Shown here: positions 8,734-64,000 of the stretch, piece after piece
Position numbering within the stretch: position 1 is the first letter of the stretch
How the letters are laid out: each line of letters opens with the position of its first letter
Source: the human T2T-CHM13v2.0 reference genome, Homo sapiens
Assembly (NCBI RefSeq): GCF_009914755.1
Contig: NC_060926.1
Reading direction: 5' to 3' (one strand)
DNA: 64,000 nucleotides
The notes under the pieces: model-generated
Told to the model about the DNA's origin: nothing
What the model saw: the letters and a program-made list of their open reading frames with translations, nothing else
The model's database searches: none
Translations under genes and position numbers: made by a program

Positions 8734-9636
<903 letters not shown>

Positions 9637-22866: not shown

Positions 22867-23273
22867 TTAATTTACTTGAAGTAGTTTGTTTCTTCCTTTT
22901 TTAAAAAATGCATTCCTTTGTCAGCAGGTATGGGACACACTGCCAGTAAGAGAGGTCAATAAAAAAAGACTGCTTTATACACATTACTCCATTTGTTCTG
23001 TACTGTGATGACTGCTGTTTGCAGAAATTCTCTGGACTATATTGATTTTCCTCTGTTGGTGCATTGATAGAATTACTCTCAGGGGAGAGATTTCTAGGAA
23101 TGAAATAGAAGACAATGTGAAAAATAGTATGTACAAAGTTCAGAAGATTGCATTTTGAGATAGTAGGTTTCTAGTTGCTCGTGTAATCTGGAGATTTCTT
23201 TTCAATAGAAGTGCAAAATTTGTGCACAGACATACTCGTATTGGTAATTAATTGATTATTTGTTTATTGCTAG

Positions 23274-23347
23274 AGAATCTTTACCCACTATGTTCAGCAT
23301 GCTGCACCCACTAGATGAAATAACTCCACTTGTTTGTAAATCTGGAA
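23274..23347 (+). pseudogene. ANAPC1P1: ANAPC1P exon 7 (ESLPTMFSMLHPLDEITPLVCKSG)
   Basis: 74 nt, ctag/gtaagt. Confidence 0.9.
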
Positions 23348-23639
23348 GTAAGTGTGCTTCTATATTCTTTTAGATAAGCTCTTTTGTTTTTGTTTTTTTT
23401 TTGACTTTGGTGAGGGAGATTATAAAGGCGCTTATATGAAAACTGACTTATAAAAATAATGTAATGTAAACATTTCACAAAAATAACTTCTATTTTGAAT
23501 TTCTTGAATATCATGGTATTAACTGCTCAACAGTTATTTTAGTAAAAATAAGGTATATAAATCAGTGAGGAATACCGATATATTTATTAACCTACCTGTA
23601 GATGCTTTGTTCTTTAATAGTTAATAAGTAAATGAATGA

Positions 23640-44483: not shown

Positions 44484-44751
44484 GTACGATTGAGAAGTTT
44501 CATTTATAAGACATGAAGTAATTGTGATTTACATTAATAATTGGGGTTTTAAACATTATTTTGCCATTTTTGAAGCCACTGGATCAAGTTCTTAGCTTTG
44601 TAGAGGAGCCTTAAAGAGCTAGGGAGTGCTTTGTGATGTCCACTCTATGTGTGCTCTAAGGCTGGAGTACAGGTGAAGGATGTGCTATTTCTGTTCTCTG
44701 AGGTTCTTCTGTTGGGGAATATTGTGCAGTATAATAATATATGGACATGCC

Positions 44752-45038
44752 TGCTGGGCATGGTGGCTCACTCCTGTAATCCCAACATTTTGTGAGACTG
44801 AGGCAGGTGGATCGCTTGAGGTCGGTAGTTCGAGACCAGCCCGGCCAACGTGGTGAAACCCTTTCTCTACTAAAAATACAAAAATCAGCGGGGTGTGGTG
44901 GTGCACTTCTGTAATCTCAGCTACTTGGGAGTCTGAGGCAAGAGAATCGCTTGAACCCAGAATGCGGAGGTTGCAGTGAGCCAAGATCGTGCCACTGCGC
45001 TCCAGCCTAGGTGATAGAGTGAGACTCAGTCTCAAAAA

Positions 45039-45088
<50 letters not shown>

Positions 45089-45184
45089 GTATATGTATAT
45101 ATATATGTATATATATATGTATATGTATATATATATGTATATGTATATGTATATGTATATATATATATGTATATGTATATATAT
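44752..45184 (+). mobile_element. Alu with poly(A) extended into a (TA)/(TATG) microsatellite (45047-45184)
   Basis: TSD atatggacatgcct on both sides. Confidence 0.93.
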
Positions 45185-46218
45185 GGACATGCCTCTTGCA
45201 AGAACATCTGGGAAACTGGAAGCCTAAGCGACTAAGATAATTCTTGGCATATTTAATGTTTTTTTCTGTAATGTATTAATGATGTTTTTAATTTTAAAAT
45301 GAATATCTCAATTTTCAGATAAATTGTGAAAGTAACCTAATTGCCTTAATTGAATAAAACTTAATATTATTGTCAAAATACAATCAGAATTATCTTAATA
45401 AATATTGGATTCTGCTTGAATTATTCCTGAGATGCAATTTCAAAAATGCTAGAGGAGAATATTTCTGAACATAGCATAGTAAACAAAATGTTAGAATTGA
45501 AGGGATTTGCCAACAAACGTAGGTTAAGAAAAGAATGCCTGTATGATATAAGGAAGTTCATGACATATCTTGGTTTCCAATCTAACTGCCAAAGCAAGAC
45601 ATTGGCAGATTGTAGACAAGAATAACTTTTTCATTTTAGGAATTTTCACTGCTGGTAAATGGTATTCCAAGTTGCTATAGAGATTCCTTGCCTTCTAAAA
45701 GGTATTTCGTAATCACAAGGCCAGGTACCTAGAAGTATGATAAGCCTAAGCAAAATATATAAAAACAAATAATAATGGAAGAAATTAAATAAATAAAAAC
45801 AAAAAATCTTACCCCTTTATAGCCAAATAGAAGCCCCATAGTTTATGCACATAAGTTTATGTACTTTACCTGCAAAGGGTTCTCACACACTCATGCAGCA
45901 TTGGGTTTACACTTATTTTGGATTCAGCTATGACATACTTGGTTATATGGTATTTTAATATTATTTGCTTCCAACCTGTGCTGTGTGAGTTTGCATATTG
46001 CAAACTGACGGGATAGAGGATATGCTGATGAGGGTGGGCCCAGTGGCATGACAGTGGAAAGGGAAAAAAGAATCCTGGAAGAGAGGATATGTGAGTACAC
46101 AAACATTGCAGTTTGGGATTATTTACTACTAAAAGCAGATTTGGGTCTCTTCACAGTGGTAGCCCTGGCCACTCTGAGGGGATCATTGTATGACAGTGTA
46201 GTGCTATAATTGATGTGG

Positions 46219-47555
<1,337 letters not shown>

Positions 47556-47778
47556 AGCTGTCTTCAGACCCCTTTCAAGCCCTGTTGAATTCAGTAGTTG
47601 GTTTTAGTTTCAGATGATGGGTTAGGTAATGTTTGCATCTCATTGGCTCTTTAATGACAGTTTTCTTTTCATAATAATTGGCCTTTACATAGTAGAAGTT
47701 AAAGAAACTTGGTTATTGAAAGGGGAAAAGAAATGCATGCAGAGTAAGAATACTAAAATTAATCTTTGCTTTTAATAG

Positions 47779-47966
47779 TACAAACGTGTTTGCAAACAAT
47801 TAAGTTTATCCTGCCAAAAGAAATAGCAGTTCAGATGCTTGTCAAGTGGTACAATGTCCACAGTGCTCCAGGAGGACCCAGTTATCACTCAGAGTGGAAT
47901 TTATTTGTGACTTGTCTCATGAACGTGATGGGTTTTAACACAGACCGCTTAGCATGGACTAGAAAT
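47779..47966 (+). pseudogene. ANAPC1P1: ANAPC1P exon 17, copy 1 (QTCLQTIKF...MNVMGFNTDRLAWTRN)
   Basis: 188 nt, atag/gtaagt. Confidence 0.9.
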
Positions 47967-48651
47967 GTAAGTAAATACAATTGTTTTCTTTATGAGTTAT
48001 TCTGTTAATGTAATGGTTGCATAATTGGTAATATAACATTGAGACTATATAATAGGCGTACCATATTCAAAATAATAGAATAATATTAAGGTTTATTGTA
48101 TCTATATGTTGTAAATCAAATCTCACTTAATATTTAATGTTAACATTTTACTAGTGATTATAATTACTGAGCTTTAGAATGTTAAAGCATATATGACTAT
48201 TTCTCATTTCACCTTTGTAAAATGACTGCAAGTTATGCTAGGATTAGTGATAGTCTTGGTTTTATTGATGAAGAAACTGGATCACAAAGAAATCACAGAT
48301 CTGTGATTTTTTAAAAACTATGACTAGACTGCATCTTCTGACTCCTTGTTTAACATTGTTTTCTGAAGATAAGATTGTCTTTTTACACACATATTGCTTG
48401 GGATGTGAAGAGGAAGGTTTGATTTGAGGGAGATTTAAAGTGCTTTAGCCTGAGTATCTACTCTGTTAATGGTAGAAAGCCTTACCTCTCACCCTCTTCC
48501 CCCAGTAACATCCTTACAGGCCCTTATTAGATTATTTACAAAATCAGCAGAGTGGTGTCTTCAGTATTGGTGATCTCCTTCTAGCTTTGGAGATCACTCC
48601 CAGGACAACTTTGCCTGGGTCACTCTGAAAAAAAATCACTCTAGACTATAA

Positions 48652-49015
<364 letters not shown>

Positions 49016-49599
49016 AGCAAATCCATTTTTAAAACTTGTTTTTTGTCTTAATTATGAAAGGAAAATGTGGAAAATGGAGGAATTAAGAAAATAATTATAC
49101 TACTCAGAGATAACCACTCTAAATATTTTTGATGTTACCTTCTATATAAAAATACCAATGAAAATTTCCCGTTATCATTAAAAATTTTTTCTAAAATATC
49201 TCCATCATTTCTTCATAGTGTAGTTTTATCATAATTAACCAATAGCTAATAATTGTGCCTTGTGAATCTGTTGTTTTTGTTATTGTAATTTATAAGCATC
49301 CTTTTTCACGAATCTTTAACCACATCTCTAGTTACTTCCCAAGAATTGAATCTTAAAAGAGAAACTATGAGGTCAAGTAATGTTTGGAAAGGGGTTCCCA
49401 GGTGACATTCTTACTAGCATCATTTAAAAGCGCCCATTTCACCACAGTGTTTATTTGTGGTGTGGTGAACCTTTGCCAGCTTCCTGAGAAATTTTATCTT
49501 ATTTCTCTATAAGTAAATGGGAATGGTTTTTTCAAAATTTCATCAGTTATTTATAGTTCTTATTTTTTGATTCGTATTTCATGTCCTTTGTCTATGTTC

Positions 49600-50205
49600 C
49601 AGTCTCTTCTCAGACCAGTGGCCAAAGTAATCCTGTTTGATAACGTCAGGTTGCGTTCGTCACGCCTCTGCGTAGAATCCCCCAGTGACTTCCCATGTCA
49701 CTCAGAGTAAAGGCCATAGGCCTATAAGATGCCATGTGACCTAGCCCTTGCTCACCTTCCTGGTCTTATTTCTTAATGCTTTGCACACATCATCCCGGCC
49801 ACATTGGCCTCAGCTCTGTTCCCTGAGCACTGCCAGCATGTTTCTGCCTCTGAGTGTTTGCACTTGCCATTACCTCTATGGAGAATGCTTTCCCTCCGAC
49901 AAGACGTGCTTAGGTCTTTATTCAGATGTCACCTCAGTGCTGCCTGTCCTGTCTCTCTCTATAGAATTACACCTGCCTCCATACCTTTAGTGCCATTTAC
50001 CTGTTTTTCTTTCTTCTCACTTAATTAAATATAATATACTATATGTTTTACTTATTTTGTTTTGTATCCCTCCTCCCCCAACTGGAATGTAAATTCTAGG
50101 AAGGCAAAGATTTTTGCTTAGTTTTGTTTACTACTCTCTCTCTCCAGGACCTGTGGTATTGCCTGGCATAGAAGGATACTCAGTGAACATTTGTTGAGTG
50201 AATGC
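49600..50205 (+). mobile_element. L2 3' fragment (copy 2 ~59260-59866)
   Basis: Ends with L2 tail gcctggcatag...atttgttgagtgaatg. Confidence 0.7.
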
Positions 50206-50317
50206 CATTTTCCATCTGAGTGAGATACTGTTTTTAAGAGTTTGTGTCTATTTCAGCACATGAAGGAATTGCTGTCTGCAATTTCCTTGAGAAAAATCTT
50301 ATGGGAAAATAGGGACA

Positions 50318-50626
<309 letters not shown>

Positions 50627-52874
50627 TTCTTTTCTAATTTTAAACAATTGTATCCAAGTGACATTATCCTCAATTTTTCTGTTCTTTATTACATGTGAAA
50701 AGATTAAGCCTCATAGAAACTGGATTTCTACATTATGAAAAAGCATGTCAGCTTTCTGTAGTTTTGTGTATCATTGTCCTTGGAACTTGTTGATGAGTAC
50801 AGATTGTTGTGTCCTAGTCTCTGGCAGAGAACCTATGCCCCCTCGCGTTTCCATGTTTTGGGGAGGACTGAGCACCTACCCATTTTTTCCTTTGCAAAGA
50901 AGGACATGGCTCTTTGACTTACTTATTGCATGATAATTATAAAGGAAGGAATAAGGAAATCAATTCTTGAGGCCAAGTTGCTTTGCCATTTATTTATAGG
51001 ACTGCGTGGTTAAACCCTTGCTATCTTTTGTCCTCATAGTCAAAGCTTAGGATGAAATGGTCCTCATTGGCAAATGGTTTTCATTTTGCTTTGTTCAGAT
51101 TTATTCTTTTTGTTTTCACATATATAATGTGGTGGAGTACAGAATTTCTGCCAATGACTCGTTACACAATTTTTGGCATTTCTTTGTGCTTTCTTTAATT
51201 TGCTGATGTGTTACATGAGTGCACTGGACTGTACATTGTAGGAACAGTTGCATTTGGGGTTAACTTTTTGTGGCTTTTGGGCTGCTCTTTTTTTCATTAG
51301 ATAAATATTGAATCCCTGCTGTGGGCCAGGCATGATGCCAGGTTTCTCACATATACCCCAGACAAAACAGATTGTTCCTCTGGAATTGACTGTCTTGAGG
51401 GAAACAAATAAATAATATTTGATACATGTGTTATGATAGATGAAGGGTAAGGGTCCATAGGAGCATATAACAGGGTTGGCTAACCTGAGACACATTGAAA
51501 GAGTGAAGATTAAACAGATCCATGTATGGCACAAAGAGCCATCCTTATCAGGCAGTTTCTACTTTCTCATAACTCCAGGCCTTATGAATCTGATAATTAT
51601 AGCAGGGACATTCTTTTTGACTGTGGGACTTTGTGTGTGTTACATTTTGGTTGAAGTTTTAGGTTAGATAGTTACTGTTATATTTGTTGCTTTGATTTCA
51701 CTGTTACTACCAGGTTTTTTATAATATATATGAGTTGGGCTGTTTTTTATTTGAATGCTTCACAAGCAAATCTTCTCTCTCAATAACATTCGGTTTTAAA
51801 AATCACTTTATTGCTACCTATGTTTAGTTTTTATATAGAAATCAACTCTGTTTAGGTGAGTGAGTTGATAAATATGTAAGTTTTTCAGCATAGGAAAATA
51901 GCCATTGCCATTTATAGAGTTACAGTTTATTAGTTGATGGTCAATGTCCATGTGAAGTAGCTGGGGCAGCAAAGATTATGCCAGGGGAAATTGAAGAAGA
52001 GCAACTTGCAGAAAACTGCTTTGATGTAGTTGTACTAGTTAAAAGATAGGCTCACTATTGTAATAGAAAGGCCTCAAAAGATACAATGGCTCAAACACAA
52101 TAAAAATGTCTGTCTTGTTTACATAACAGGGCTTAGCAGATAAACAGGCCACACAGTTATTCAGGAACCCAGGTTGATGGAGGATCTTTTGTCTTCGGTT
52201 CAAAGCTTGCCGTTGGTTGACTGCATTCCAGTCAGGTGGAAGGGGCAAAGAGCCTGGAGGAGCAGGGGTAGGACTGGACTGGTCCTGGAAGTGATGACAG
52301 TGACTTCCATTTATAATTAACTCTGTCAAAGGGTCACACCTAACTTCAAAGGAGGCAGACGTATGTATGTAGTCTGGCTGTGGGTTCAGTAGAAAGAGGA
52401 GAAAAAAGATTTTCCAGAGTAGCTACTTGTCTCTGCCATAGAATTGTTAGATAGTTTACTGTAGGTGGACTGTAAATAAATGTTTGCTTAGTTCTAACAT
52501 TTGACTGATATTGGGTTGATCCTTTGAGACTTGGTATATTGTGGATATGCCTAAAGTTTCTTTTTCTACCAAAGATGTGATGTAATCTATGTCGTTACAG
52601 AAGTAGGAGAGGGAAGGAAACTACCATTAAAATCAGTCCTTAGGAGCCCAGGCACTGTTCTAGATGTTTGCATATATTAATATGATTTCATTTCATCTTT
52701 ACAGTAACCTGGAAGAAAGATATTTAAATAATGACTTTCCAGATCAAAAAATGAGTTTTGATGGCTTTTCTCAGTTTTCATAATTGGCAGAACTGATTTC
52801 CGAATCCTTTAAGTTGATCAGTTGACAGGAATGCATTTATGATTTTTATCTTTTCTTTTGGGGTTACTTTTCAG

Positions 52875-52949
52875 TTTGACTTTGAAGGATCACTTTCCCC
52901 TGTCATTGCACCCAAAAAAGCAAGGCCTTCTGAGACTGGATCTGATGAT
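52875..52949 (+). pseudogene. ANAPC1P1: ANAPC1P exon 18, copy 1 (FDFEGSLSPVIAPKKARPSETGSDD)
   Basis: 75 nt, tcag/gtaagc. Confidence 0.9.
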
Positions 52950-53212
52950 GTAAGCATTATTATTTCTTGCTAATATAAATTAATTTATGGATATTCATAC
53001 TATTCTTCCACTTCTGTGGTATTCCTATCAATTCCTCTATCTTTCCAACACCTTTCACTTTATTTATTTTAATACTGAATAGCAATTATTTTGAAGAGTA
53101 GGATCTGTTACATTTTCTATGGTCTTTAATGATTATCCAAAAATTAATGTATGTATTACTGCATGATTTCAGTTTGGGTTTGTAGACATTTTATTATCAA
53201 CTGATCACCTGA

Positions 53213-53592
<380 letters not shown>

Positions 53593-53818
53593 GGGCAAGA
53601 CACCCTCAGAGCACAGGGTGCTGCCAAGAGCCCGGCCGAGTGCAGCTGGAGCGCCGACGTCGCCAAGGATACACAGTGCTGACGCAGTACACAAGTGCGT
53701 CACAGTGGTCCTCCGCCGGCTACGTCAGTGGCTTTCAGGCGCTTTCCTGTTGGAATTGGCGACTGCTGCGGGGCTGAGCGCTGGTTTCACGCGTCTCGGG
53801 AGCCAGGTTGGCGGTGCG
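53593..53818 (+). promoter_or_regulatory. RANBP2-derived CpG-rich promoter / 5'UTR of RGPD
   Basis: CpG-dense; CRE/ATF-like motifs tgacgca (53680), tgcgtca (53696), acgtca (53722); lies directly before the RGPD ATG. Confidence 0.75.
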
Positions 53819-53890
53819 ATGAGGCGCAGCAAGGCCTACGGGGAGCGGTACCTCGCCTCGGTGCAGGGCTCCGCCCCGTCGCCTGGAAAG
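53819..53890 (+). CDS. RGPD1: RGPD (RANBP2-like and GRIP domain containing) exon 1, [24 protein letters not shown]
   Basis: 72 nt, phase 0, GTGAGT donor at 53891; homologous to RANBP2 N-terminus and matches recalled RGPD1/2-type sequence; symbol inferred from CD8B adjacency. Confidence 0.85.
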
Positions 53891-53914
53891 GTGAGTGGAT
53901 CTCGAAGAGACCGA

Positions 53915-54278
53915 CGGCCTCGACCTGGCCGGGCGGCGGCCTCGACCTGGCCGGGCGGCGGCCTCGACCTGGCCGGGCGGCGGCGGCGGCCTCGGCCTCC
54001 GCCTGGCCGGGCGGCGGCGGCCTCGGCCTCCGCCTGGCCGGGCGGCGGCGGCGGCCTCGGCCTCGGCCCCGGCCTGGCCGGGCGGCGGCGGCGGCGGCGA
54101 CGGCGGCGGCCTCGGCCTCGGCCTGGCCGGGCGGCGGCGGCGGCGGCGGCGGCGGCCTCGGCCTCGGCCTGGCCGGACGGCGGCGGCGGCCTCGGCCTGG
54201 CCGGGCGGCGGCGGCGGCCTCGGCCTGGCCGGGCGGCGGCGGCGGCGGCGGCCTCGGCCTCGGCCTTGGCCTCGGCCG

Positions 54279-54311
<33 letters not shown>

Positions 54312-54395
54312 CTCGGCCTGGCCGGGCGGCGGCGGCGGCGGCGGCGGCGGCCTCGACCTGGCCGGGCGGCGGCGGCGGCGGCCTCGACCTGGCCG

Positions 54396-54434
<39 letters not shown>

Positions 54435-54983
54435 CTCGGCCTGGCCGGGCGGCGGCGGCGGCGGCGGCGGCGGGGGCGGCGGCGGCGGCCTCGGCCTGGC
54501 CGGGCTGCGGCGGCGGCGGCGGCCTCGGCCTGGCCGGGCTGCGGCGGCGGTGGCGGCCTCGGCCTGGCCGGGCGGCGGCGGCGGCGGCGGCGGCGGCGGC
54601 CTCGGCCTCGGCCTCGGCCTCGGCCTTGGCCTCGACCTGGCCGGGCGGCGGCGGCGGCGGCGGCCTCGACCTGGCCGGGCGGCGGCGGCGGCGGCGGCGG
54701 CCTCGACCTGGCCGGGCGGCGGCGGCGGCGGCGGCGGCGGCGGCCTCGACCTGGCCGGGCGGCGGCGGCGGAGGCGGCGGCGGCGGCCTCGACCTGGCCG
54801 GGCGGCGGCGGCGGCGGCGGCGGCGGCGGCCTCGACCTGGCCGGGCGGCGGCGGCGGCGGCGGCGGCGGCCTCGACCTGGCCGGGCGGCGGCGGCGGCGG
54901 CCTCGACCTGGCCGGGCGGCGGCGGCGGCGGCGGCGGCGGCGGCCTCGACCTGGCCGGGCGGCGGCGGCGGCGGCGGCCTGGC
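53915..54983 (+). repeat. Compound GC-rich VNTR: core CTCG(A/G)CCTGGCCG plus (GGC)n, with CTCGGC hexamer stutters
   Basis: About 1.07 kb; pure GGC runs up to ~13 units (54396-54434); starts ~25 bp into RGPD intron 1. Confidence 0.97.
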
Positions 54984-55304
54984 CTAAGGTACTTCTGTTG
55001 GGGAATATTGTGCAGTATAATAATATATGGACATGCCTGCTGGGCATGGTGGCTCACACCTGTAATCCCAACATTTTGTGAGACTGAGGCAGGTGGATCG
55101 CTTGAGGTCGGTCGTTCGAGACCAGCCTGGCCAACGTGGTGAAACCCTTTCTCTACTGAAAATACAAAAATCAGCGGGGTGTGGTGGTGCACTTCTGTAA
55201 TCTCAGCTACTTGGGAGTCTGAGGCAGGAGAATTGCTTGAACCCAGAATGCGGAGGTTGCAGTGAGCCAAGATCGTGCCACTGCACTCCAGCCTAGGTGA
55301 TAGA

Positions 55305-55328
55305 GTTAGGGTTAGGGTTAGGGTTAGG
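55305..55328 (+). repeat. Short interstitial telomeric sequence, G(TTAGGG)3TTAGG
   Basis: Perfect hexamers at a deletion junction; absent from copy 1. Confidence 0.93.
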
Positions 55329-56091
55329 CAAGACATTGGCAGATTGTAGACAAGAATAACTTTTTCATTTTAGGAATTTTCACTGCTGGTAAATGGTATT
55401 CCAAGTTGCTATAGAGATTCCTTGCCTTCTAAAAGGTATTTCGTAATCACAAGGCCAGGTACCTAGAAGTATGATAAGCCTAAGCAAAATATATAAAAAC
55501 AAATAATAATGGAAGAAATTAAATAAATAAAAACAAAAAATCTTACCCCTTTATAGCCAAATAGAAGCCCCATAGTTTATGCACATAAGTTTATGTACTT
55601 TACCTGCAAAGGGTTCTCACACACTCATGCAGCATTGGGTTTACACTTATTTTGGATTCAGCTATGACATACTTGGTTATATGGTATTTTAATATTATTT
55701 GCTTCCAACCTGTGCTGTGTGAGTTTGCATATTGCAAACTGACGGGATAGAGGATATGCTGATGAGGGTGGGCCCAGTGGCATGACAGTGGAAAGGGAAA
55801 AAAGAATCCTGGAAGAGAGGATATGTGAGTACACAAACATTGCAGTTTGGGATTATTTACTACTAAAAGCAGATTTGGGTCTCTTCACAGTGGTAGCCCT
55901 GGCCACTCTGAGGGGATCATTGTATGACAGTGTAGTGCTATAATTGATGTGGAGCCACTGAGAATGGTATAAGGCCAGGTGTGGTGGGCTCGTGCTTGTA
56001 ATCCCCTCCCTTTGGAAGGCTGAGGTGAGGGGATTGCTTGAGGCCAGGAGTTTGAGACCAGCTTGGACAACATAGTGAGACTCGGTCTCTA

Positions 56092-56259
<168 letters not shown>

Positions 56260-57409
56260 TTACCAAAAAAAGAATGGTGTAAATTATGTGGTATCAACTC
56301 TTAACCCTTTTAAGGCAGAGAGCATGTGAAACATTTTAGAAACTGAACGACATCAGAAATAAAGTTATAAAGCTTTGGTTAATAGGCATGTTAAGTCATT
56401 TAGAACATCATGTAATGCTAGCTAAGCATTGCTATTCGTGGATGCATATATTGAATATTATATATTTACTGGAGTGCAATGGCGTGATCTTGGCTCACTG
56501 CAACCTCTGCCTCCCGGGTTCAGGCGATTCTCCTGCCTCAGCCTCCTGAGTAGCTGGGATTACAGGTGCCTGCCACAATGCCCAACTAATTTTTGTATTT
56601 TTAGTAGAAATGGGGTTTCACCATGTTGGTCAGGCTGGTTTCGAACTCCTGACCTCAGGTGATCCACCCGCCTTGACCTCGCAAAGTGCTTAGATTACAG
56701 GCGTGAGTCACCATGCCTGGCCCATAGTGACTTTTAATTTGTCACCCGAGCTAGAACATCTTTAAGAGTGAAGGGGAGCAGTTAGTAATTGCTAGGCAAT
56801 GGATGTAAATCAGGACTGTCTCTGGCAAACTGGGCTATTTGGTTACTTTATTTCTGATGCAAAATTAATGATCAAAAAGCTGTCCTTGGCCGGGCACAGT
56901 GGCTCACACCTGTAATCCCAGTGCTTTGGGAGGCCAAGGCAGGTGGATCATGAGGTCAGGAGTTTGAGACCAGCCTGGCCAACATGGTGAAAACATGGTC
57001 TCTACTAAAAATACAAAAATTAGCCTGGGGCAGTGGCAGACGCCTGTAATCCCGGCTACTTGGTGGCTGAGGCAGGAGAATCGCTTGAACTCAGGAGGCA
57101 GAAGTTGCAGTGTGCCAAGACTGCGCCACAGCACTCCAGCCTGGGCAACAGAGCGAGACACCCTCTCAAAAAAAAAAAAAAGAAAAAGCTGTCTTCAGAC
57201 CCCTTTCAAGCCCTGTTGAATTCAGTAGTTGGTTTTAGTTTCAGATGATGGGTTAGGTAATGTTTGCATCTCATTGGCTCTTTAATGACAGTTTTCTTTT
57301 CATAATAATTGGCCTTTACATAGTAGAAGTTAAAGAAACTTGGTTATTGAAAGGGGAAAAGAAATGCATGCAGAGTAAGAATACTAAAATTAATCTTTGC
57401 TTTTAATAG

Positions 57410-57597
57410 TACAAACGTGTTTGCAAACAATTAAGTTTATCCTGCCAAAAGAAATAGCAGTTCAGATGCTTGTCAAGTGGTACAATGTCCACAGTGCTCC
57501 AGGAGGACCCAGTTATCACTCAGAGTGGAATTTATTTGTGACTTGTCTCATGAACGTGATGGGTTTTAACACAGACCGCTTAGCATGGACTAGAAAT
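57410..57597 (+). pseudogene. ANAPC1-derived exon 17, copy 2; its last 48 nt (ATG 57550) are a candidate alternative RGPD1 first coding segment
   Basis: Same peptide as copy 1; phase-0 GTAAGT donor. Confidence 0.85.
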
Positions 57598-58309
57598 GTA
57601 AGTAAATACAATTGTTTTCTTTATGAGTTATTCTGTTAATGTAATGGTTGCATAATTGGTAATATAACATTGAGACTATATAATAGGCGTACCATATTCA
57701 AAATAATAGAATAATATTAAGGTTTATTGTATCTATATGTTGTAAATCAAATCTCACTTAATATTTAATGTTAACATTTTACTAGTGATTATAATTACTG
57801 AGCTTTAGAATGTTAAAGCATATATGACTATTTCTCATTTCACCTTTGTAAAATGACTGCAAGTTATGCTAGGATTAGTGATAGTCTTGGTTTTATTGAT
57901 GAAGAAACTGGATCACAAAGAAATCACAGATCTGTGATTTTTTAAAAACTATGACTAGACTGCATCTTCTGACTCCTTGTTTAACATTGTTTTCTGAAGA
58001 TAAGATTGTCTTTTTACACACATATTGCTTAGGATGTGAAGAGGAAGGTTTGATTTGAGGGAGATTTAAAGTACTTTAGCCGAGTACTATACCATCTACT
58101 CTGTACTTATACCATCTACTCTGTTAATGGTATAAGGCCTTACCTCTCACCCTCTTCCCCCAGTAACATCCTTACAGGCCCTTATTAGATTATTTACAAA
58201 ATCAGCAGAGTGGTGTCTTCAGTATTGGTGATCTCCTTCTAGCTTTGGAGATCACTCCCAGGACAACTTTGCCTGGGTCACTCTGAAAAAAAATCACTCT
58301 AGACTATAA

Positions 58310-58582
<273 letters not shown>

Positions 58583-60032
58583 TAGCCAGGATGGTCTCGA
58601 TCTCCTGACCTCGTGATCTGCCCGTCTCAGCCTCCCAAAGTGCTGGGATTACAGGTGTGAGCCACCGTGCCTGGCCAGCAAATCCATTTTTAAAACTTGT
58701 TTTTTGTCTTAATTATGAAAGGAAAATGTGGAAAATGGAGGAATTAAGAAAATAATTATACTACTCAGAGATAACCACTCTAAATATTTTTGATGTTACC
58801 TTCTATATAAAAATACCAATGAAAATTTCCCGTTATCATTAAAAATTTTTTCTAAAATATCTCCATCATTTCTTCATAGTGTAGTTTTATCATAATTAAC
58901 CAATAGCTAATAATTGTACCTTGTGAATCTGTTGTTTTCGTTATTGGAATTTATAAACATCCTTTTTCACGACTCTTTAACCACATCTCTAGTTACTTCC
59001 CAAGAATTGAATCTTAAAAGAGAAACTGTGAGGTCAAGTAATGTTTGGAAAGGGGTTCCCAGGTGACATTCTTACTAGCATCATTTAAAAGCGCCCATTT
59101 CACCACAGTGTTTATTTGTGGTGTGGTGAACCTTTGCCAGCTTCCTGAGAAATTTTATCTTATTTCTCTATAAGTAAATGGGAATGGTTTTTTCAAAATT
59201 TCATCAGTTATTTATAGTTCTTATTTTTTGATTCGTATTTCATGTCCTTTGTCTATGTTCCAGTCTCTTCTCAGACCAGTGGCCAAAGTAATCCTGTTTG
59301 ATAACGTCAGGTAGCGTTCGTCACGCCTCTGCGTAGAATCCCCCAGTGACTTCCCATGTCACTCAGAGTAAAGGCCATAGGCTTATAAGATGCCATGTGA
59401 CCTAGCCCTTGCTCACCTTCCTGGTCTTATTTCTTAATGCTTTGCACGCATCATCCCGGCCACATTGGCCTCAGCTCTGTTCCCTGAGCACTGCCAGCAT
59501 GTTTCTGCCTCTGAGTGTTTGCACTTGCCATTACCTCTATGGAGAATGCTTTCCCTCCGACAAGACGTGCTTAGGTCTTTATTCAGATGTCACCTCAGTG
59601 CTGCCTGTCCTGTCTCTCTCTATAGAATTACACCTGCCTCCATACCTTTAGTGCCATTTACCTGTTTTTCTTTCTTCTCACTTAATTAAATATAATATAC
59701 TGTATGTTTTACTTATTTTGTTTTGTGTCCCTCCTCCCCCAACTGGAATGTAAATTCTAGGAAGGCAAAGATTTTTGCTTAGTTTTGTTTACTACTCTCT
59801 CTCTCCAGGACCTGTGGTATTGCCTGGCATAGAAGGATACTCAGTGAACATTTGTTGAGTGAATGCCATTTTCCATCTGAGTGAGATACTGTTTTTAAGA
59901 GTTTGTGTCTATTTCAGCACATGAAGGAATTGCTGTCTGCAATTTCCTTGAGAAAAATCTTATGGGAAAATAGGGACAATTTTCTTTTCTTTTCTTTCCT
60001 TTTTTAAGACGGGGTTTTGCTCTGTCGTCTAG

Positions 60033-60224
<192 letters not shown>

Positions 60225-62535
60225 TGATCCTCCCACCTTGGCCTCCCAAAGTGCTAGGATTACAGGTGTGAACCATGGCTCCTGGCCTTCTTTTCTAATT
60301 TTAAACAATTGTATCCAAGTGACATTATCCTCAATTTTTCTGTTCTTTATTACATGTGAAAAGATTAAGCCTCATAGAAACTGGATTTCTACATTATGAA
60401 AAAGCATGTCAGCTTTCTGTAGTTTTGTGTATCATTGTCCTTGGAACTTGTTGATGAGTACAGATTGTTGTGTCCTAGTCTCTGGCAGAGAACCTATGCC
60501 CCCTCGCGTTTCCATGTTTTGGGGAGGACTGAGCACCTACCCATTTTTTCCTTTGCAAAGAAGGACATGGCTCTTTGACTTACTTATTGCATGATAATTA
60601 TAAAGGAAGGAATAAGGAAATCAATTCTTGAGGCCAAGTTGCTTTGCCATTTATTTATAGGACTGCGTGGTTAAACCCTTGCTATCTTTTGTCCTCATAG
60701 TCAAAGCTTAGGATGAAATGGTCCTCATTGGCAAATGGTTTTCATTTTGCTTTGTTCAGATTTATTCTTTTTGTTTTCACATATATAATGTGGTGGAGTA
60801 CAGAATTTCTGCCAATGACTCGTTACACAATTTTTGGCATTTCTTTGTGCTTTCTTTAATTTGCTGATGTGTTACATGAGTGCACTGGACTGTACATTGT
60901 AGGAACAGTTGCATTTGGGGTTAACTTTTTGTGGCTTTTGGGCTGCTCTTTTTTTCATTAGATAAATATTGAATCCCTGCTGTGGGCCAGGCATGATGCC
61001 AGGTTTCTCACATATACCCCAGACAAAACAGATTGTTCCTCTGGAATTGACTGTCTTGAGGGAAACAAATAAATAATATTTGATACATGTGTTATGATAG
61101 ATGAAGGGTAAGGGTCCATAGGAGCATATAACAGGGTTGGCTAACCTGAGACACATTGAAAGAGTGAAGATTAAACAGATCCATGTATGGCACAAAGAGC
61201 CATCCTTATCAGGCAGTTTCTACTTTCTCATAACTCCAGGCCTTATGAATCTGATAATTATAGCAGGGACATTCTTTTTGACTGTGGGACTTTGTGTGTG
61301 TTACATTTTGGTTGAAGTTTTAGGTTAGATAGTTACTGTTATATTTGTTGCTTTGATTTCACTGTTACTACCAGGTTTTTTATAATATATATGAGTTGGG
61401 CTGTTTTTTATTTGAATGCTTCACAAGCAAATCTTCTCTCTCAATAACATTCGGTTTTAAAAATCACTTTATTGCTACCTATGTTTAGTTTTTATATAGA
61501 AATCAACTCTGTTTAGGTGAGTGAGTTGATAAATATGTAAGTTTTTCAGCATAGGAAAATAGCCATTGCCATTTATAGAGTTACAGTTTATTAGTTGATG
61601 GTCAATGTCCATGTGAAGTAGCTGGGGCAGCAAAGATTATGCCAGGGGAAATTGAAGAAGAGCAACTTGCAGAAAACTGCTTTGATGTAGTTGTACTAGT
61701 TAAAAGATAGGCTCACTATTGTAATAGAAAGGCCTCAAAAGATACAATGGCTCAAACACAATAAAAATGTCTGTCTTGTTTACATAACAGGGCTTAGCAG
61801 ATAAACAGGCCACACAGTTATTCAGGAACCCAGGTTGATGGAGGATCTTTTGTCTTCGGTTCAAAGCTTGCCGTTGGTTGACTGCATTCCAGTCAGGTGG
61901 AAGGGGCAAAGAGCCTGGAGGAGCAGGGGTAGGACTGGACTGGTCCTGGAAGTGATGACAGTGACTTCCATTTATAATTAACTCTGTCAAAGGGTCACAC
62001 CTAACTTCAAAGGAGGCAGACGTATGTATGTAGTCTGGCTGTGGGTTCAGTAGAAAGAGGAGAAAAAAGATTTTCCAGAGTAGCTACTTGTCTCTGCCAT
62101 AGAATTGTTAGATAGTTTACTGTAGGTGGACTGTAAATAAATGTTTGCTTAGTTCTAACATTTGACTGATATTGGGTTGATCCTTTGAGACTTGGTATAT
62201 TGTGGATATGCCTAAAGTTTCTTTTTCTACCAAAGATGTGATGTAATCTATGTCGTTACAGAAGTAGGAGAGGGAAGGAAACTACCATTAAAATCAGTCC
62301 TTAGGAGCCCAGGCACTGTTCTAGATGTTTGCATATATTAATATGATTTCATTTCATCTTTACAGTAACCTGGAAGAAAGATATTTAAATAATGACTTTC
62401 CAGATCAAAAAATGAGTTTTGATGGCTTTTCTCAGTTTTCATAATTGGCAGAACTGATTTCCGAATCCTTTAAGTTGATCAGTTGACAGGAATGCATTTA
62501 TGATTTTTATCTTTTCTTTTGGGGTTACTTTTCAG

Positions 62536-62610
62536 TTTGACTTTGAAGGATCACTTTCCCCTGTCATTGCACCCAAAAAAGCAAGGCCTTCTGAGACTGG
62601 ATCTGATGAT
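62536..62610 (+). pseudogene. ANAPC1-derived exon 18, copy 2
   Basis: 75 nt, tcag/gtaagc, same as copy 1. Confidence 0.88.
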
Positions 62611-62916
62611 GTAAGCATTATTATTTCTTGCTAATATAAATTAATTTATGGATATTCATACTATTCTTCCACTTCTGTGGTATTCCTATCAATTCCTCTA
62701 TCTTTCCAACACCTTTCACTTTATTTATTTTAATACTGAATAGCAATTATTTTGAAGAGTAGGATCTGTTACATTTTCTATGGTCTTTAATGATTATCCA
62801 AAAATTAATGTATGTATTACTGCATGATTTCAGTTTGGGTTTGTAGACATTTTATTATCAACTGATCACCTGAAATGACAGCATTTGCCTTTTTTATGCA
62901 GTGTTTTTTAAATTAA

Positions 62917-63256
<340 letters not shown>

Positions 63257-63436
63257 TCCATGGTGTTATTCTTAAGTGGTCCAAATATGTTTTTTTAAAT
63301 TGTGGTGTAATTTACAAAAATGAAATACATCTTGAGTTTACAGTTTGATCAGTTTTAATATATGCACACTCATGTAACCTACACTCCTATATAGACACAG
63401 AATATTTTTATAACTCCATAAAATTTCCTTGTGCGG

Positions 63437-63720
63437 TTTTTTTTTTTTGAGACGGAGTCTTGCCTTATCGCCTAGGCTGGAGTGCAGTGGCACGATGTTG
63501 GCTCACCACCTCCTGGGTTGAAGCTATTCTCCTGCCTCAACCTCCTGAATAGCTGGGATTATAGGCATGCGCCACCACGCCTGGCCAATTTTTGTATTTT
63601 TAGTAGAGATAGGGTTTCACCATGTTGGTCAGGCTGGTCTTGAACTCCTGACCTCGTGATCTGCCCACCTCGGCCTCCCAAAGTTCTGGGATTACAGGCA
63701 TGAGCCACTGGGCCTGGCCC
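63437..63720 (-). mobile_element. Alu nested in an old L1M fragment (~63290-64000)
   Basis: Antisense Alu flanked by antisense L1 3'UTR motifs. Confidence 0.85.
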
Positions 63721-64000
63721 CTCTTGCTGTTTTTAATCAGCTTTATTCTCTTCTTCTAGCAATCACTGATCTGAATTCTGTCACCATATCTTAGTTATGC
63801 CTGTTCTAGAACTTGATGTAAATAAAATAATATAGTATGTAATCTTTGGTATAAGATTTATTCAGCATAATGCTTTTGAGATTCATTCATATTGTTACAG
63901 ATACCCGTAGTTTGTGCTTTTTTATTGCTGAGTAGTATGAATATACCATAGTTTGTTTATCCATCCTTCTTCTGCTGGTAGATATCTAGGCTATTTCCAT

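What the first reader, a model, noticed from the sequence alone, without database searches (positions are those of the whole stretch)
55290..55345. 573-bp deletion filled with an in-register telomeric tract: candidate telomerase-healed break with its pre-break allele 10 kb away
Seen: copy 1 reads ...gtgatagaGT(45020)-[573 bp]-(45594)Gcaagacattgg. Copy 2 reads ...gtgatagaGT + TAGGGTTAG GGTTAG GGTTAG + Gcaagacattgg, a 21-nt insert at 55307-55327. Established: the human telomerase RNA template specifies 5'-GTTAGGGTTAG-3' and repeat cycles end in GGTTAG; short interstitial telomeric sequences are proposed to arise during double-strand-break repair. Inference: a broken end finishing in GT can pair with the template start, and 9+6+6 = 21 nt equals three complete cycles, followed by end joining. 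The deleted segment includes the Alu poly(A) and the ~140-bp (TA)-rich microsatellite (45047-45184), a plausible fragile break site. The G at 55328 is ambiguous, so the right edge is uncertain by 1 nt.
Basis: partly seen in the sequence, partly recalled or inferred. Interest (0 to 1): 0.8.

Follow-up and report, generated by a model that had tools for sequence, protein, structure and literature searches.

The report
Short telomere-repeat scar in RGPD1 intron
A 23-base run of telomere repeats replaces about 500 bases in one of two neighbouring duplicated segments, which looks like an ordinary, already catalogued scar of an ancient chromosome break repaired with telomere repeats.

Summary
Window 55306-55328 reads (TTAGGG)3TTAGG. 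It sits where copy 2 of an ANAPC1-derived duplicate lacks copy 1's 45021-45593: the Alu 3' end, A-tail, (TA)n, target-site duplication and about 390 bp of unique DNA.

Copy 1, a paralog at chr2:88.0 Mb and the ANAPC1 parent all keep the undeleted state without telomeric repeats. Copy 2 is therefore the derived copy, and the junction is unique in the genome. The (TA)n tract is 88 bp longer in copy 1, so the loss was 485-573 bp.

This fits the published class of short interstitial telomeric sequences inserted at double-strand breaks, with flank deletion and in-register microhomology (Nergadze 2004/2007; Santagostino 2020). The broken end ...TAGAGT matches the telomeric register at 5 of 6 bases and can pair 3 nt with TERC. 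Synthesis by telomerase is the best reading but is not provable. The "three complete cycles" and "(TA)n fragile site" arguments are weak.

The locus is very probably entry 18 of the 2020 hg19 catalogue (28 nt, 1 mismatch).

New details:
- The deletion is more than 10 times larger than the published primate cases.
- The tract lies 323 bp from the junction of the RGPD1-specific tandem duplication.
- The tract marks a switch in paralog affinity (Fisher p=0.005).

Gene-conversion mosaicism blocks dating.

The parts
55306..55328 (+). Short interstitial telomeric sequence, (TTAGGG)3TTAGG, G-rich strand on +. The strictly inserted letters are 55307-55327.
   Evidence: Read directly. It is absent from copy 1, the 88.0-Mb paralog and ANAPC1. 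It is the only TTAGGGTTAGGG in the 94 kb around it.
55301..55306 (+). 3' end of the left broken end, TAGAGT. It matches the telomeric register at 5 of 6 bases. GT is in register, and AGT can pair with TERC.
   Evidence: The sequence is ancestral, since it is also present in copy 1, p88 and ANAPC1. The TERC reverse complement shares AGTTAGGGTTAG with the junction.
54984..55305 (+). Left flank in copy 2: about 50 bp of unique ANAPC1-intron DNA plus an Alu that has lost its last ~14 bp, its A-tail and its 3' target-site duplication.
   Evidence: Alignment with 44698-45020 shows 9 differences in 323 bp. The paralog affinity here is p88-like.
55329..56475 (+). Right flank in copy 2. It is nearly identical to copy 1, with 1 mismatch in the 1148-bp BLAST block 55328-56475.
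   Evidence: It shares 4 derived sites with copy 1 and none with p88.
45021..45593 (+). Segment kept in copy 1 and missing from copy 2: the Alu 3' end and A-tail, the (TA/TG)n tract, the Alu target-site duplication TATATGGACATGCCT, and about 390 bp of unique DNA.
   Evidence: The TA tract is 88 bp longer here than in p88 and ANAPC1.
44698..53592 (+). Copy 1 of the duplicated ANAPC1-derived segment (end of ANAPC1P1). It ends in a hybrid Alu whose crossover lies at about 53496-53528.
54984..64000 (+). Copy 2 of the duplicated segment. It runs on past the window, collinear with ANAPC1 and p88, to a second RGPD exon 1 at about window 85504.
53593..54983 (+). Spacer between the copies: the RGPD/RANBP2-type promoter, exon 1 (ATG at 53820) and the GGC-rich intron-1 minisatellite. 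The tandem-duplication junction is at 54983/54984.
   Evidence: Sequence read. Ten genomic copies of 53593-53915, including one 31.9 kb downstream.
56469..56475 (+). Junction of a second deletion found only in copy 2. It removes 100 bp: an Alu poly(T) end plus 63 bp of unique DNA, with short microhomology at the junction.

Best explanation
The tract is a short interstitial telomeric sequence that entered in one step when a double-strand break in copy 2 was repaired. Copy 2 is now part of intron 1 of the long RGPD1 transcripts.

Proposed sequence of events:
1. About 485-573 bp around the Alu tail and (TA)n were lost.
2. This exposed the C-free 3' end ...GGTGATAGAGT.
3. Telomerase most likely aligned this end on its RNA template. 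AGT can pair with TERC, and TAGAGT matches the register at 5 of 6 bases.
4. Telomerase added TAGGGTTAG and then two or so GGTTAG repeats.
5. The extended end was joined to the other end at G|CAAGAC by non-homologous end joining, with 0-1 nt of microhomology.

Shown: the derived state, the one-step insertion, the absence of any seed or local template, the in-register end, and the TERC template sequence.

Inferred: that telomerase made the repeats rather than a captured telomeric fragment, where the original break lay, and the number of cycles.

No function is implied. The tract is a repair scar.
For: - Sequence and paralog alignment.
- Three telomere-repeat-free copies with a complete Alu tail and target-site duplication (copy 1, chr2:88.0 Mb, ANAPC1).
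- Only 1 of the 40 scored genomic matches covers the junction, and the unique right flank has just 4 copies.
- No other telomeric 12-mer in 154 kb of related sequence.
- TERC in this genome carries CTAACCCTAAC once, and its reverse complement shares 12 nt (AGTTAGGGTTAG) with the junction.
- Both flanks abut the tract with no extra letters, so there is no room for TERC-derived or random filler.
- Published model (PMC2246262, passages and Table S8 read): deletion is the commonest flank change in primates (13 of 25 loci), and 2 or more in-register nucleotides occur in 49-67% of species-specific loci against an expectation of up to 6.25%.
- Catalogue (PMC7215372, Table S1 read): entry 18, chr2:87142399-87142428 in hg19, is '28 (1)'. 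That is exactly the length and mismatch count of this tract. It is the only entry on chr2 between 75.76 and 114.36 Mb, which argues that the junction is also in GRCh37.
Against: - Nothing in the sequence separates telomerase synthesis from capture of a telomeric DNA fragment. A 2-nt register match arises by chance at about 6%, and the right-end register is compatible at about 1 in 3.
- The deletion is more than 10 times larger than the 13 primate deletions in Table S8 of PMC2246262, which range from 1 to 42 bp.
- The tract lies only 323 bp from the tandem-duplication junction, and a second deletion private to copy 2 lies 1.1 kb further on. The paralog affinity of copy 2 switches exactly at the tract. 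A simple isolated break does not predict any of these.
- The identity of this locus with catalogue entry 18 rests partly on hg19 and hg38 gene coordinates that I recalled. No tool verified them.
Confidence: 0.7

Rival explanations
1. One complex event. The tract is filler at a multi-junction rearrangement that also created the RGPD1-specific tandem duplication and its extra promoter and exon 1. A broken end in the GGC minisatellite primed replication at 44698 and came off after 323 nt. Telomerase, or a telomeric template, extended it. It then re-entered at 45594, slipped again at 46741 to 46841, and afterwards copied stably (template switching of the break-induced-replication type).
For: - The tract lies 323 bp from the duplication junction at 54983/54984.
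- The only two copy-2-specific deletions of 50 bp or more in the 9.2 kb that has an outgroup both fall in the first 1.5 kb. My own arithmetic for two independent uniform events gives about 0.03.
- Copy 2 is p88-like at 6 of 7 informative sites left of the tract and copy-1-like at 6 of 6 to the right (Fisher p=0.0047).
- Two substitutions private to copy 2 lie within 8 nt of the duplication junction.
Against: - The clustering argument is post hoc.
- Patchy affinity also occurs far from any junction. Block 48442-50066 is p88-like. Extensive RGPD1/RGPD2 gene conversion is reported (PMC13639854, passages). Conversion tracts that simply stop at the heterology would give the same switch.
- The rival still needs a source for the telomeric repeats.
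Confidence: 0.15
2. Capture of a pre-existing telomeric DNA fragment, or a cDNA of telomeric RNA, between the two ends during end joining, without telomerase acting on the break.
For: The authors of the model proposed this as the alternative (PMC2246262, abstract and background). A 21-nt insert carries no mark of its maker.
Against: - The ancestral 3' end is in register (GT, with 5 of 6 bases matching), and the G-rich strand continues that 3' end, as priming requires.
- Across loci, the published excess of in-register ends favours telomerase.
Confidence: 0.13
3. Assembly artefact, or a change private to the sequenced cell line.
For: The region is a high-identity segmental duplication. No reads could be inspected here.
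Against: - A 28-nt tract with one mismatch is listed in the matching region of the independent hg19 assembly.
- The flanks carry paralog-specific differences that are consistent with a real third lineage.
Confidence: 0.02
4. Microsatellite-type growth by slippage from a chance TTAGGG seed.
For: None found.
Against: The three undeleted copies have no TTAGGG at either edge. The tract replaces about 500 bp instead of expanding in place.
Confidence: 0.005

Closest known systems
Short interstitial telomeric sequences inserted at double-strand-break sites, 'deletion' class (Nergadze et al. 2004, cited only; Nergadze et al. 2007, PMC2246262; Santagostino et al. 2020, PMC7215372)
   Same: It is a perfect short array in one orientation, inserted in one step into unrelated conserved sequence. 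Flanking DNA is lost and the ancestral 3' end is in register with the repeats. The locus is very probably entry 18 of the 2020 hg19 list.
   Different: The deletion is 485-573 bp, against 1-42 bp in the primate table. The empty site is read from three paralogs in the same genome rather than from an ortholog in another species. The tract lies in a gene-converting segmental duplication, 323 bp from a duplication junction.
Chromosome healing, or de novo telomere addition (neotelomeres). This is referred to in PMC2246262. PMC11293586 was seen only in the search listing.
   Same: Telomerase primes on a non-telomeric 3' end that has a few nucleotides of complementarity to its template.
   Different: Here only about 3.5 repeats were added, and the end was rejoined to the other side of the break. 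No terminal deletion and no functional telomere resulted.
TERC-ITS: telomeric repeats flanked by retrotranscribed telomerase RNA (PMC2246262; PMC8537989, abstract only)
   Same: A telomeric insertion at a break that is attributed to telomerase.
   Different: No TERC-derived letters are present. Both flanks are ancestral right up to the tract. The only TERC match longer than 7 nt is the template plus one base, and that base is itself ancestral.
Fusion-type and subtelomeric-type interstitial telomeric sequences, for example the 2q13 fusion site (entries 19-20)
   Same: TTAGGG repeats at an internal chromosomal site.
   Different: Those arrays are hundreds of bases long and degenerate, lie head to head or beside subtelomeric duplicons, and arise by fusion or recombination. 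This one is 23 nt, perfect, and sits between an Alu and unique intron DNA.
Templated sequence insertions at repair junctions (PMC5110952, seen only in the search listing)
   Same: A short foreign sequence lies at a deletion junction.
   Different: No DNA template for the tract exists within 94 kb or in the paralogs. The repeat unit is the one that TERC specifies.

Membership tests
Short ITS inserted at a double-strand break (Nergadze/Giulotto class) | At least four telomeric hexamer units with fewer than one mismatch per unit | tested here: met
   24 nt perfect as (GTTAGG)4 at 55305-55328, or 28 nt with 1 mismatch from 55301. The criteria are quoted.
Short ITS inserted at a double-strand break (Nergadze/Giulotto class) | One-step appearance in a pre-existing unrelated sequence, with an empty site that has no telomeric seed | tested here: met
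   Three copies without telomeric repeats, namely copy 1, chr2:88.0 Mb and ANAPC1. The test used paralogs, not orthologs.
Short ITS inserted at a double-strand break (Nergadze/Giulotto class) | Break-site modification typical of end joining (none, deletion, addition or duplication) | tested here: met
   A deletion of 485-573 bp with no added filler. The size is outside the published primate range of 1-42 bp.
Short ITS inserted at a double-strand break (Nergadze/Giulotto class) | Ancestral 3' end in register with the inserted repeats | tested here: met
   GT is in register and TAGAGT matches at 5 of 6 bases. AGT pairs with TERC.
Short ITS inserted at a double-strand break (Nergadze/Giulotto class) | Empty orthologous locus in an outgroup species, which dates the insertion | not testable with these tools
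   No ape genomes are held. Divergence-based dating is confounded by a gene-conversion mosaic.
Telomerase-synthesised tract (as opposed to a captured fragment) | Dependence on telomerase and priming from this particular end | not testable with these tools
   The only available evidence is compatibility: the register, the strand orientation and the template sequence.
TERC-ITS | Letters retrotranscribed from TERC outside the template, adjacent to the repeats | tested here: not met
   Both flanks are ancestral up to the tract. The longest non-template match to TERC is 7 nt.
Fusion or subtelomeric ITS | Long degenerate arrays, head-to-head orientation or adjacent subtelomeric duplicons | tested here: not met
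   The tract is 23 nt, perfect and in one orientation. Its flanks are an Alu and ANAPC1 intron sequence.

The most novel reading that the evidence does not exclude
The telomeric tract is not an isolated later break. It is a scar of the same error-prone, template-switching event that built the RGPD1-specific tandem duplication and gave the gene its extra upstream promoter and exon 1. In this reading, a nascent strand was released after 323 nt, was extended by telomerase, and then re-engaged a different paralogous template. That would be a natural record of telomerase acting on a replication-repair intermediate during the birth of a segmental duplication.
Probability: 0.15. Interest if true: 0.55.

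Novelty: already known. Interest (0 to 1): 0.22.

Why it matters
The finding does little to change what is known. The mechanism class has been in print since 2004-2007, and the locus very probably already sits in a 2020 catalogue.

It has three modest uses:
1. It is a clean before-and-after example in which the break site can be reconstructed from three paralogs inside one haplotype.
2. Its deletion is more than ten times larger than in the published primate cases.
3. It is a fixed heterology that marks one paralog. Because of that, it delimits gene-conversion tracts between the RGPD1 copies and the RGPD2-side copy, and it could serve as a paralog-specific marker in pangenome work.

If the tract proved to be part of the duplication event itself, it would bear on how segmental duplications form.

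Tried and rejected
- **Counting short internal telomeric tracts genome-wide.** I tried the 23-mer pattern. Its 15,809 matches are swamped by true telomeres, and only the first places are listed. It gave only the reversed-pattern control of 0.
- **Scanning a further 200 kb of chr2.** The aim was to prove that no second tract could be catalogue entry 18. The identification therefore rests on three things: the matching '28 (1)', the single catalogue entry on chr2 between 75.76 and 114.36 Mb, and a coordinate conversion from recalled CD8A positions that lands within about 120 bp.
- **Dating from paralog divergence.** I rejected this as unreliable. Divergence between copy 1 and copy 2 alternates between blocks near 0% (0 differences in 50067-53225) and blocks of about 1.6-2.2% (44698-45020 and 48442-50066). 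The tree also flips between ((c1,c2),p88) and ((c2,p88),c1), which is a gene-conversion mosaic.
- **Site counts need trimming.** They include 8 spurious 'c2 only' columns inside the misaligned deletion and 14 'c1 only' columns inside the hybrid Alu (53529-53589). I excluded these from my reasoning.
- **Literature searches.** 'RGPD1' together with 'interstitial telomeric' gave 0 papers. Supplements of PMC2246262 list no HSA2p11 locus (5 files held). Searches failed on term format. One search was corrected, and one search was dropped.
- **The left 323 bp is not merely an unrelated Alu.** I rejected that idea because the homology includes about 50 bp of unique sequence upstream of the Alu.
- **First hand-in.** One search was turned back because a schema field was missing, and I resent the report with the field added.

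Full report
**What is there.** Window 55306-55328 reads (TTAGGG)3TTAGG on the + strand. To its left is ...GGTGATAGAGT and to its right GCAAGACATTGG. In copy 1, the same two flanks lie at 45020 and 45594 and are separated by 573 bp. BLAST of the two halves of the window gives 54984-55306 = 44698-45020 (97.2%, 9 mismatches in 323 bp) and 55328-56475 = 45594-46741 (99.9%, 1 mismatch in 1148 bp). It then gives 56469-63255 = 46841-53592 (98.9%). The left homology is not just Alu-to-Alu similarity, because it includes about 50 bp of unique sequence before the Alu.

**Chance.** The tract is the only place in the window with TTAGGGTTAGGG at up to 1 mismatch. The 3 matches overlap, the expectation is 0.52, and 4 of 100 shuffles reached 3 scattered matches. 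The contiguous 23-mer read backwards has no match in the whole 3.1-Gb genome, while the forward pattern is common only because of real telomeres. Exact TTAGGGTTAGGG occurs nowhere else in 94 kb around the site, in 40 kb of the 88.0-Mb paralog or in 20 kb of ANAPC1.

**Polarity.**
- A search of the window's own genome with 171 bp across the junction found one full-length match among the 40 places scored, which is the window itself.
- The unique right flank has four copies in all: copy 2, copy 1, chr2:88.0 Mb (minus strand, here called p88) and chr2:112.27 Mb (minus strand, the ANAPC1 parent).
- I fetched p88 and ANAPC1 and aligned all four copies. Copy 1, p88 and ANAPC1 all have the complete Alu 3' end (GAGACTC.GTCTC), the A-tail, a (TA/TG)n tract, the Alu's second target-site duplication (TATATGGACATGCCT) and the following unique DNA. 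None of them has any TTAGGG.
- Copy 2 is therefore the derived state.
- The TA tract is 88 bp longer in copy 1 than in p88 and ANAPC1, so the amount lost from copy 2 was between 485 and 573 bp.

**The junction in detail.**
- The strictly new letters are 55307-55327 (21 nt). GT on the left and G on the right are shared with the undeleted copies.
- The ancestral 3' end TAGAGT matches the telomeric register TAGGGT at 5 of 6 positions. The 11 nt before the break contain no C.
- The Rfam telomerase RNA model finds one TERC gene in this genome (353.6 bits). It contains CTAACCCTAAC once, which specifies GTTAGGGTTAG. Its reverse complement shares 12 nt (AGTTAGGGTTAG) with the junction, so AGT-3' could form 3 base pairs with the RNA.
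- The G-rich strand continues the left 3' end, as priming requires.
- No TERC-derived or random letters flank the tract.
With the ambiguous G, two of the six possible end registers would fit. The 2-nt left match has a chance expectation of up to 6.25%, which is the figure the literature itself uses.

**What is known.** I read passages and Table S8 of Nergadze et al. 2007 (PMC2246262).
- Short interstitial telomeric sequences appeared in one step at break sites.
- Deletion of flanking sequence is the commonest accompaniment in primates (13 of 25 loci).
- In-register nucleotides at the ancestral 3' end are strongly over-represented.
- The authors' rival to telomerase is capture of telomeric fragments.
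- The 13 primate deletions in Table S8 range from 1 to 42 bp, so the present loss is more than ten times larger.
- The held supplements of that paper list no 2p11 locus (5 files).

I read section 2.1 and Table S1 of Santagostino et al. 2020 (PMC7215372).
- The paper lists 229 hg19 loci found with (TTAGGG)4.
- Entry 18 is chr2:87142399-87142428, '28 (1)'. That is exactly this tract's length and mismatch count when read from 55301.
- It is the only chr2 entry between 75.76 and 114.36 Mb.
- A conversion using my recalled hg19 and hg38 positions of CD8A, together with the hub's T2T position of CD8A, places entry 18 within about 120 bp of the tract. That step is recall and was not verified by a tool.
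- The paper reports no allele lacking the telomeric tract at any listed locus in the 1000 Genomes data. However, a ~500-bp restoring allele in a segmental duplication would be hard to see at 4x coverage.
- A search for 'RGPD1' with 'interstitial telomeric' found no paper.

The kind is known and the locus is very probably catalogued. Its break-site reconstruction is not in print as far as these searches reach.

- The 1.39 kb between the copies (53593-54983) is an RGPD/RANBP2-type promoter, exon 1 (ATG at 53820, donor at 53890/53891) and a GGC-rich intron-1 minisatellite.
- The first 323 bp of that spacer has ten copies on chr2, including one 31.9 kb downstream in the same gene (3 mismatches in 323 bp).
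- Copy 2 runs on, collinear with ANAPC1 and p88, towards that second exon 1. Copy 1 stops in a hybrid Alu. The left part of this Alu matches copy 2's Alu, and its last ~60 bp match the Alu in front of the downstream promoter. The crossover lies in the shared stretch at about 53496-53528. This is an Alu-Alu deletion of about 22 kb.
- p88 has a single, unduplicated copy.
- The locus is therefore an RGPD1-specific tandem duplication whose junction is at 54983/54984, and the telomeric tract lies only 323 bp inside copy 2.
- A second deletion private to copy 2 lies 1.1 kb further on. It removes 100 bp, including an Alu poly(T) end, and has short microhomology at its junction.

**Mosaic affinity.** Among sites where copy 1 and p88 differ, copy 2 agrees with p88 at 6 of 7 in the 323 bp left of the tract. 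It agrees with copy 1 at 6 of 6 in the 1148 bp to the right (Fisher p=0.0047). Further along, blocks with no differences between copy 1 and copy 2 (50067-53225) alternate with a p88-like block (48442-50066), which holds 9 of the 11 derived sites shared by copy 2 and p88; the other 2 lie in the left flank. A 2026 preprint reports extensive gene conversion between RGPD1 and RGPD2 (PMC13639854, passages). The simplest reading is that conversion tracts stop at the heterology that the tract and deletion create. The bolder reading is that the 323-bp piece, the telomeric filler and the following piece are successive template switches of the event that made the duplication. I cannot separate these two readings here, and the mosaic also defeats dating by divergence.

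**Verdict.**
- The mechanism fits the published class of break repair with telomeric-repeat insertion.
- I give about 0.7 to a break-repair insertion made by telomerase as a separate event, 0.15 to the complex-event version, 0.13 to fragment capture and about 0.02 to artefact.
- It is a tidy but ordinary member of a known class, with an unusually large deletion and an interesting position.

Noticed in passing
window 53298-53592: Copy 1 ends in a hybrid Alu. Its left part matches copy 2's Alu at 62960-63255. Its last ~60 bp match the Alu in front of the downstream RGPD promoter at about 85243-85503. This implies an Alu-Alu recombination that removed about 22 kb from copy 1.
   Followed up: yes
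window 53593-54983 and about 85504 (outside the window): RGPD1 has two copies of its promoter and exon 1, 31.9 kb apart and 99% alike. The paralog at 88.0 Mb has neither the upstream copy nor the tandem duplication. A preprint notes an extended 5' end for RGPD1 in long-read transcripts.
   Followed up: partly
window 54973-54991: The 16-nt RefSeq exon 54973-54988 straddles the tandem-duplication junction. The two substitutions private to copy 2, at 54986 and 54991, turn GAG|GTTCTT (copy 1) into AAG|GTACTT, which is closer to a splice-donor consensus.
   Followed up: no
window 56469-56475 (copy 1 equivalent 46742-46840): A second deletion private to copy 2 removes 100 bp: 63 bp of unique DNA plus the poly(T) end of an antisense Alu, with short microhomology at the junction. 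Both copy-2 deletions remove an Alu A-tail.
   Followed up: partly
window 45047-45184: The (TA/TG)n tract behind the Alu tail is 88 bp longer in copy 1 than in the 88.0-Mb paralog and in ANAPC1. This looks like a lineage-specific microsatellite expansion.
   Followed up: partly
window 45693/45694 equivalent in ANAPC1 (L011): ANAPC1 carries a 317-bp insertion that starts with a poly(T) run. It is probably an antisense Alu. All three pseudogene copies lack it, so it probably entered after the duplication.
   Followed up: no
window 48442-50066 versus 50067-53225: There is a sharp gene-conversion mosaic. A block of about 1.6 kb has copy 2 sharing 9 derived sites and a 27-bp indel with the 88.0-Mb paralog. 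It is followed by 3.2 kb with no difference between copy 1 and copy 2.
   Followed up: partly
window 8736-9234 and 22934-23432: A 499-bp inverted repeat pair at 98.4% identity lies inside ANAPC1P1, 14 kb apart. I did not identify it.
   Followed up: no
window 53915-54983: A GGC-rich minisatellite of about 1 kb lies in RGPD1 intron 1. Its units are of the type GGCCTCG(A/G)CCTGGCCGGG(CGG)n and vary in length. It forms the left side of the duplication junction.
   Followed up: no
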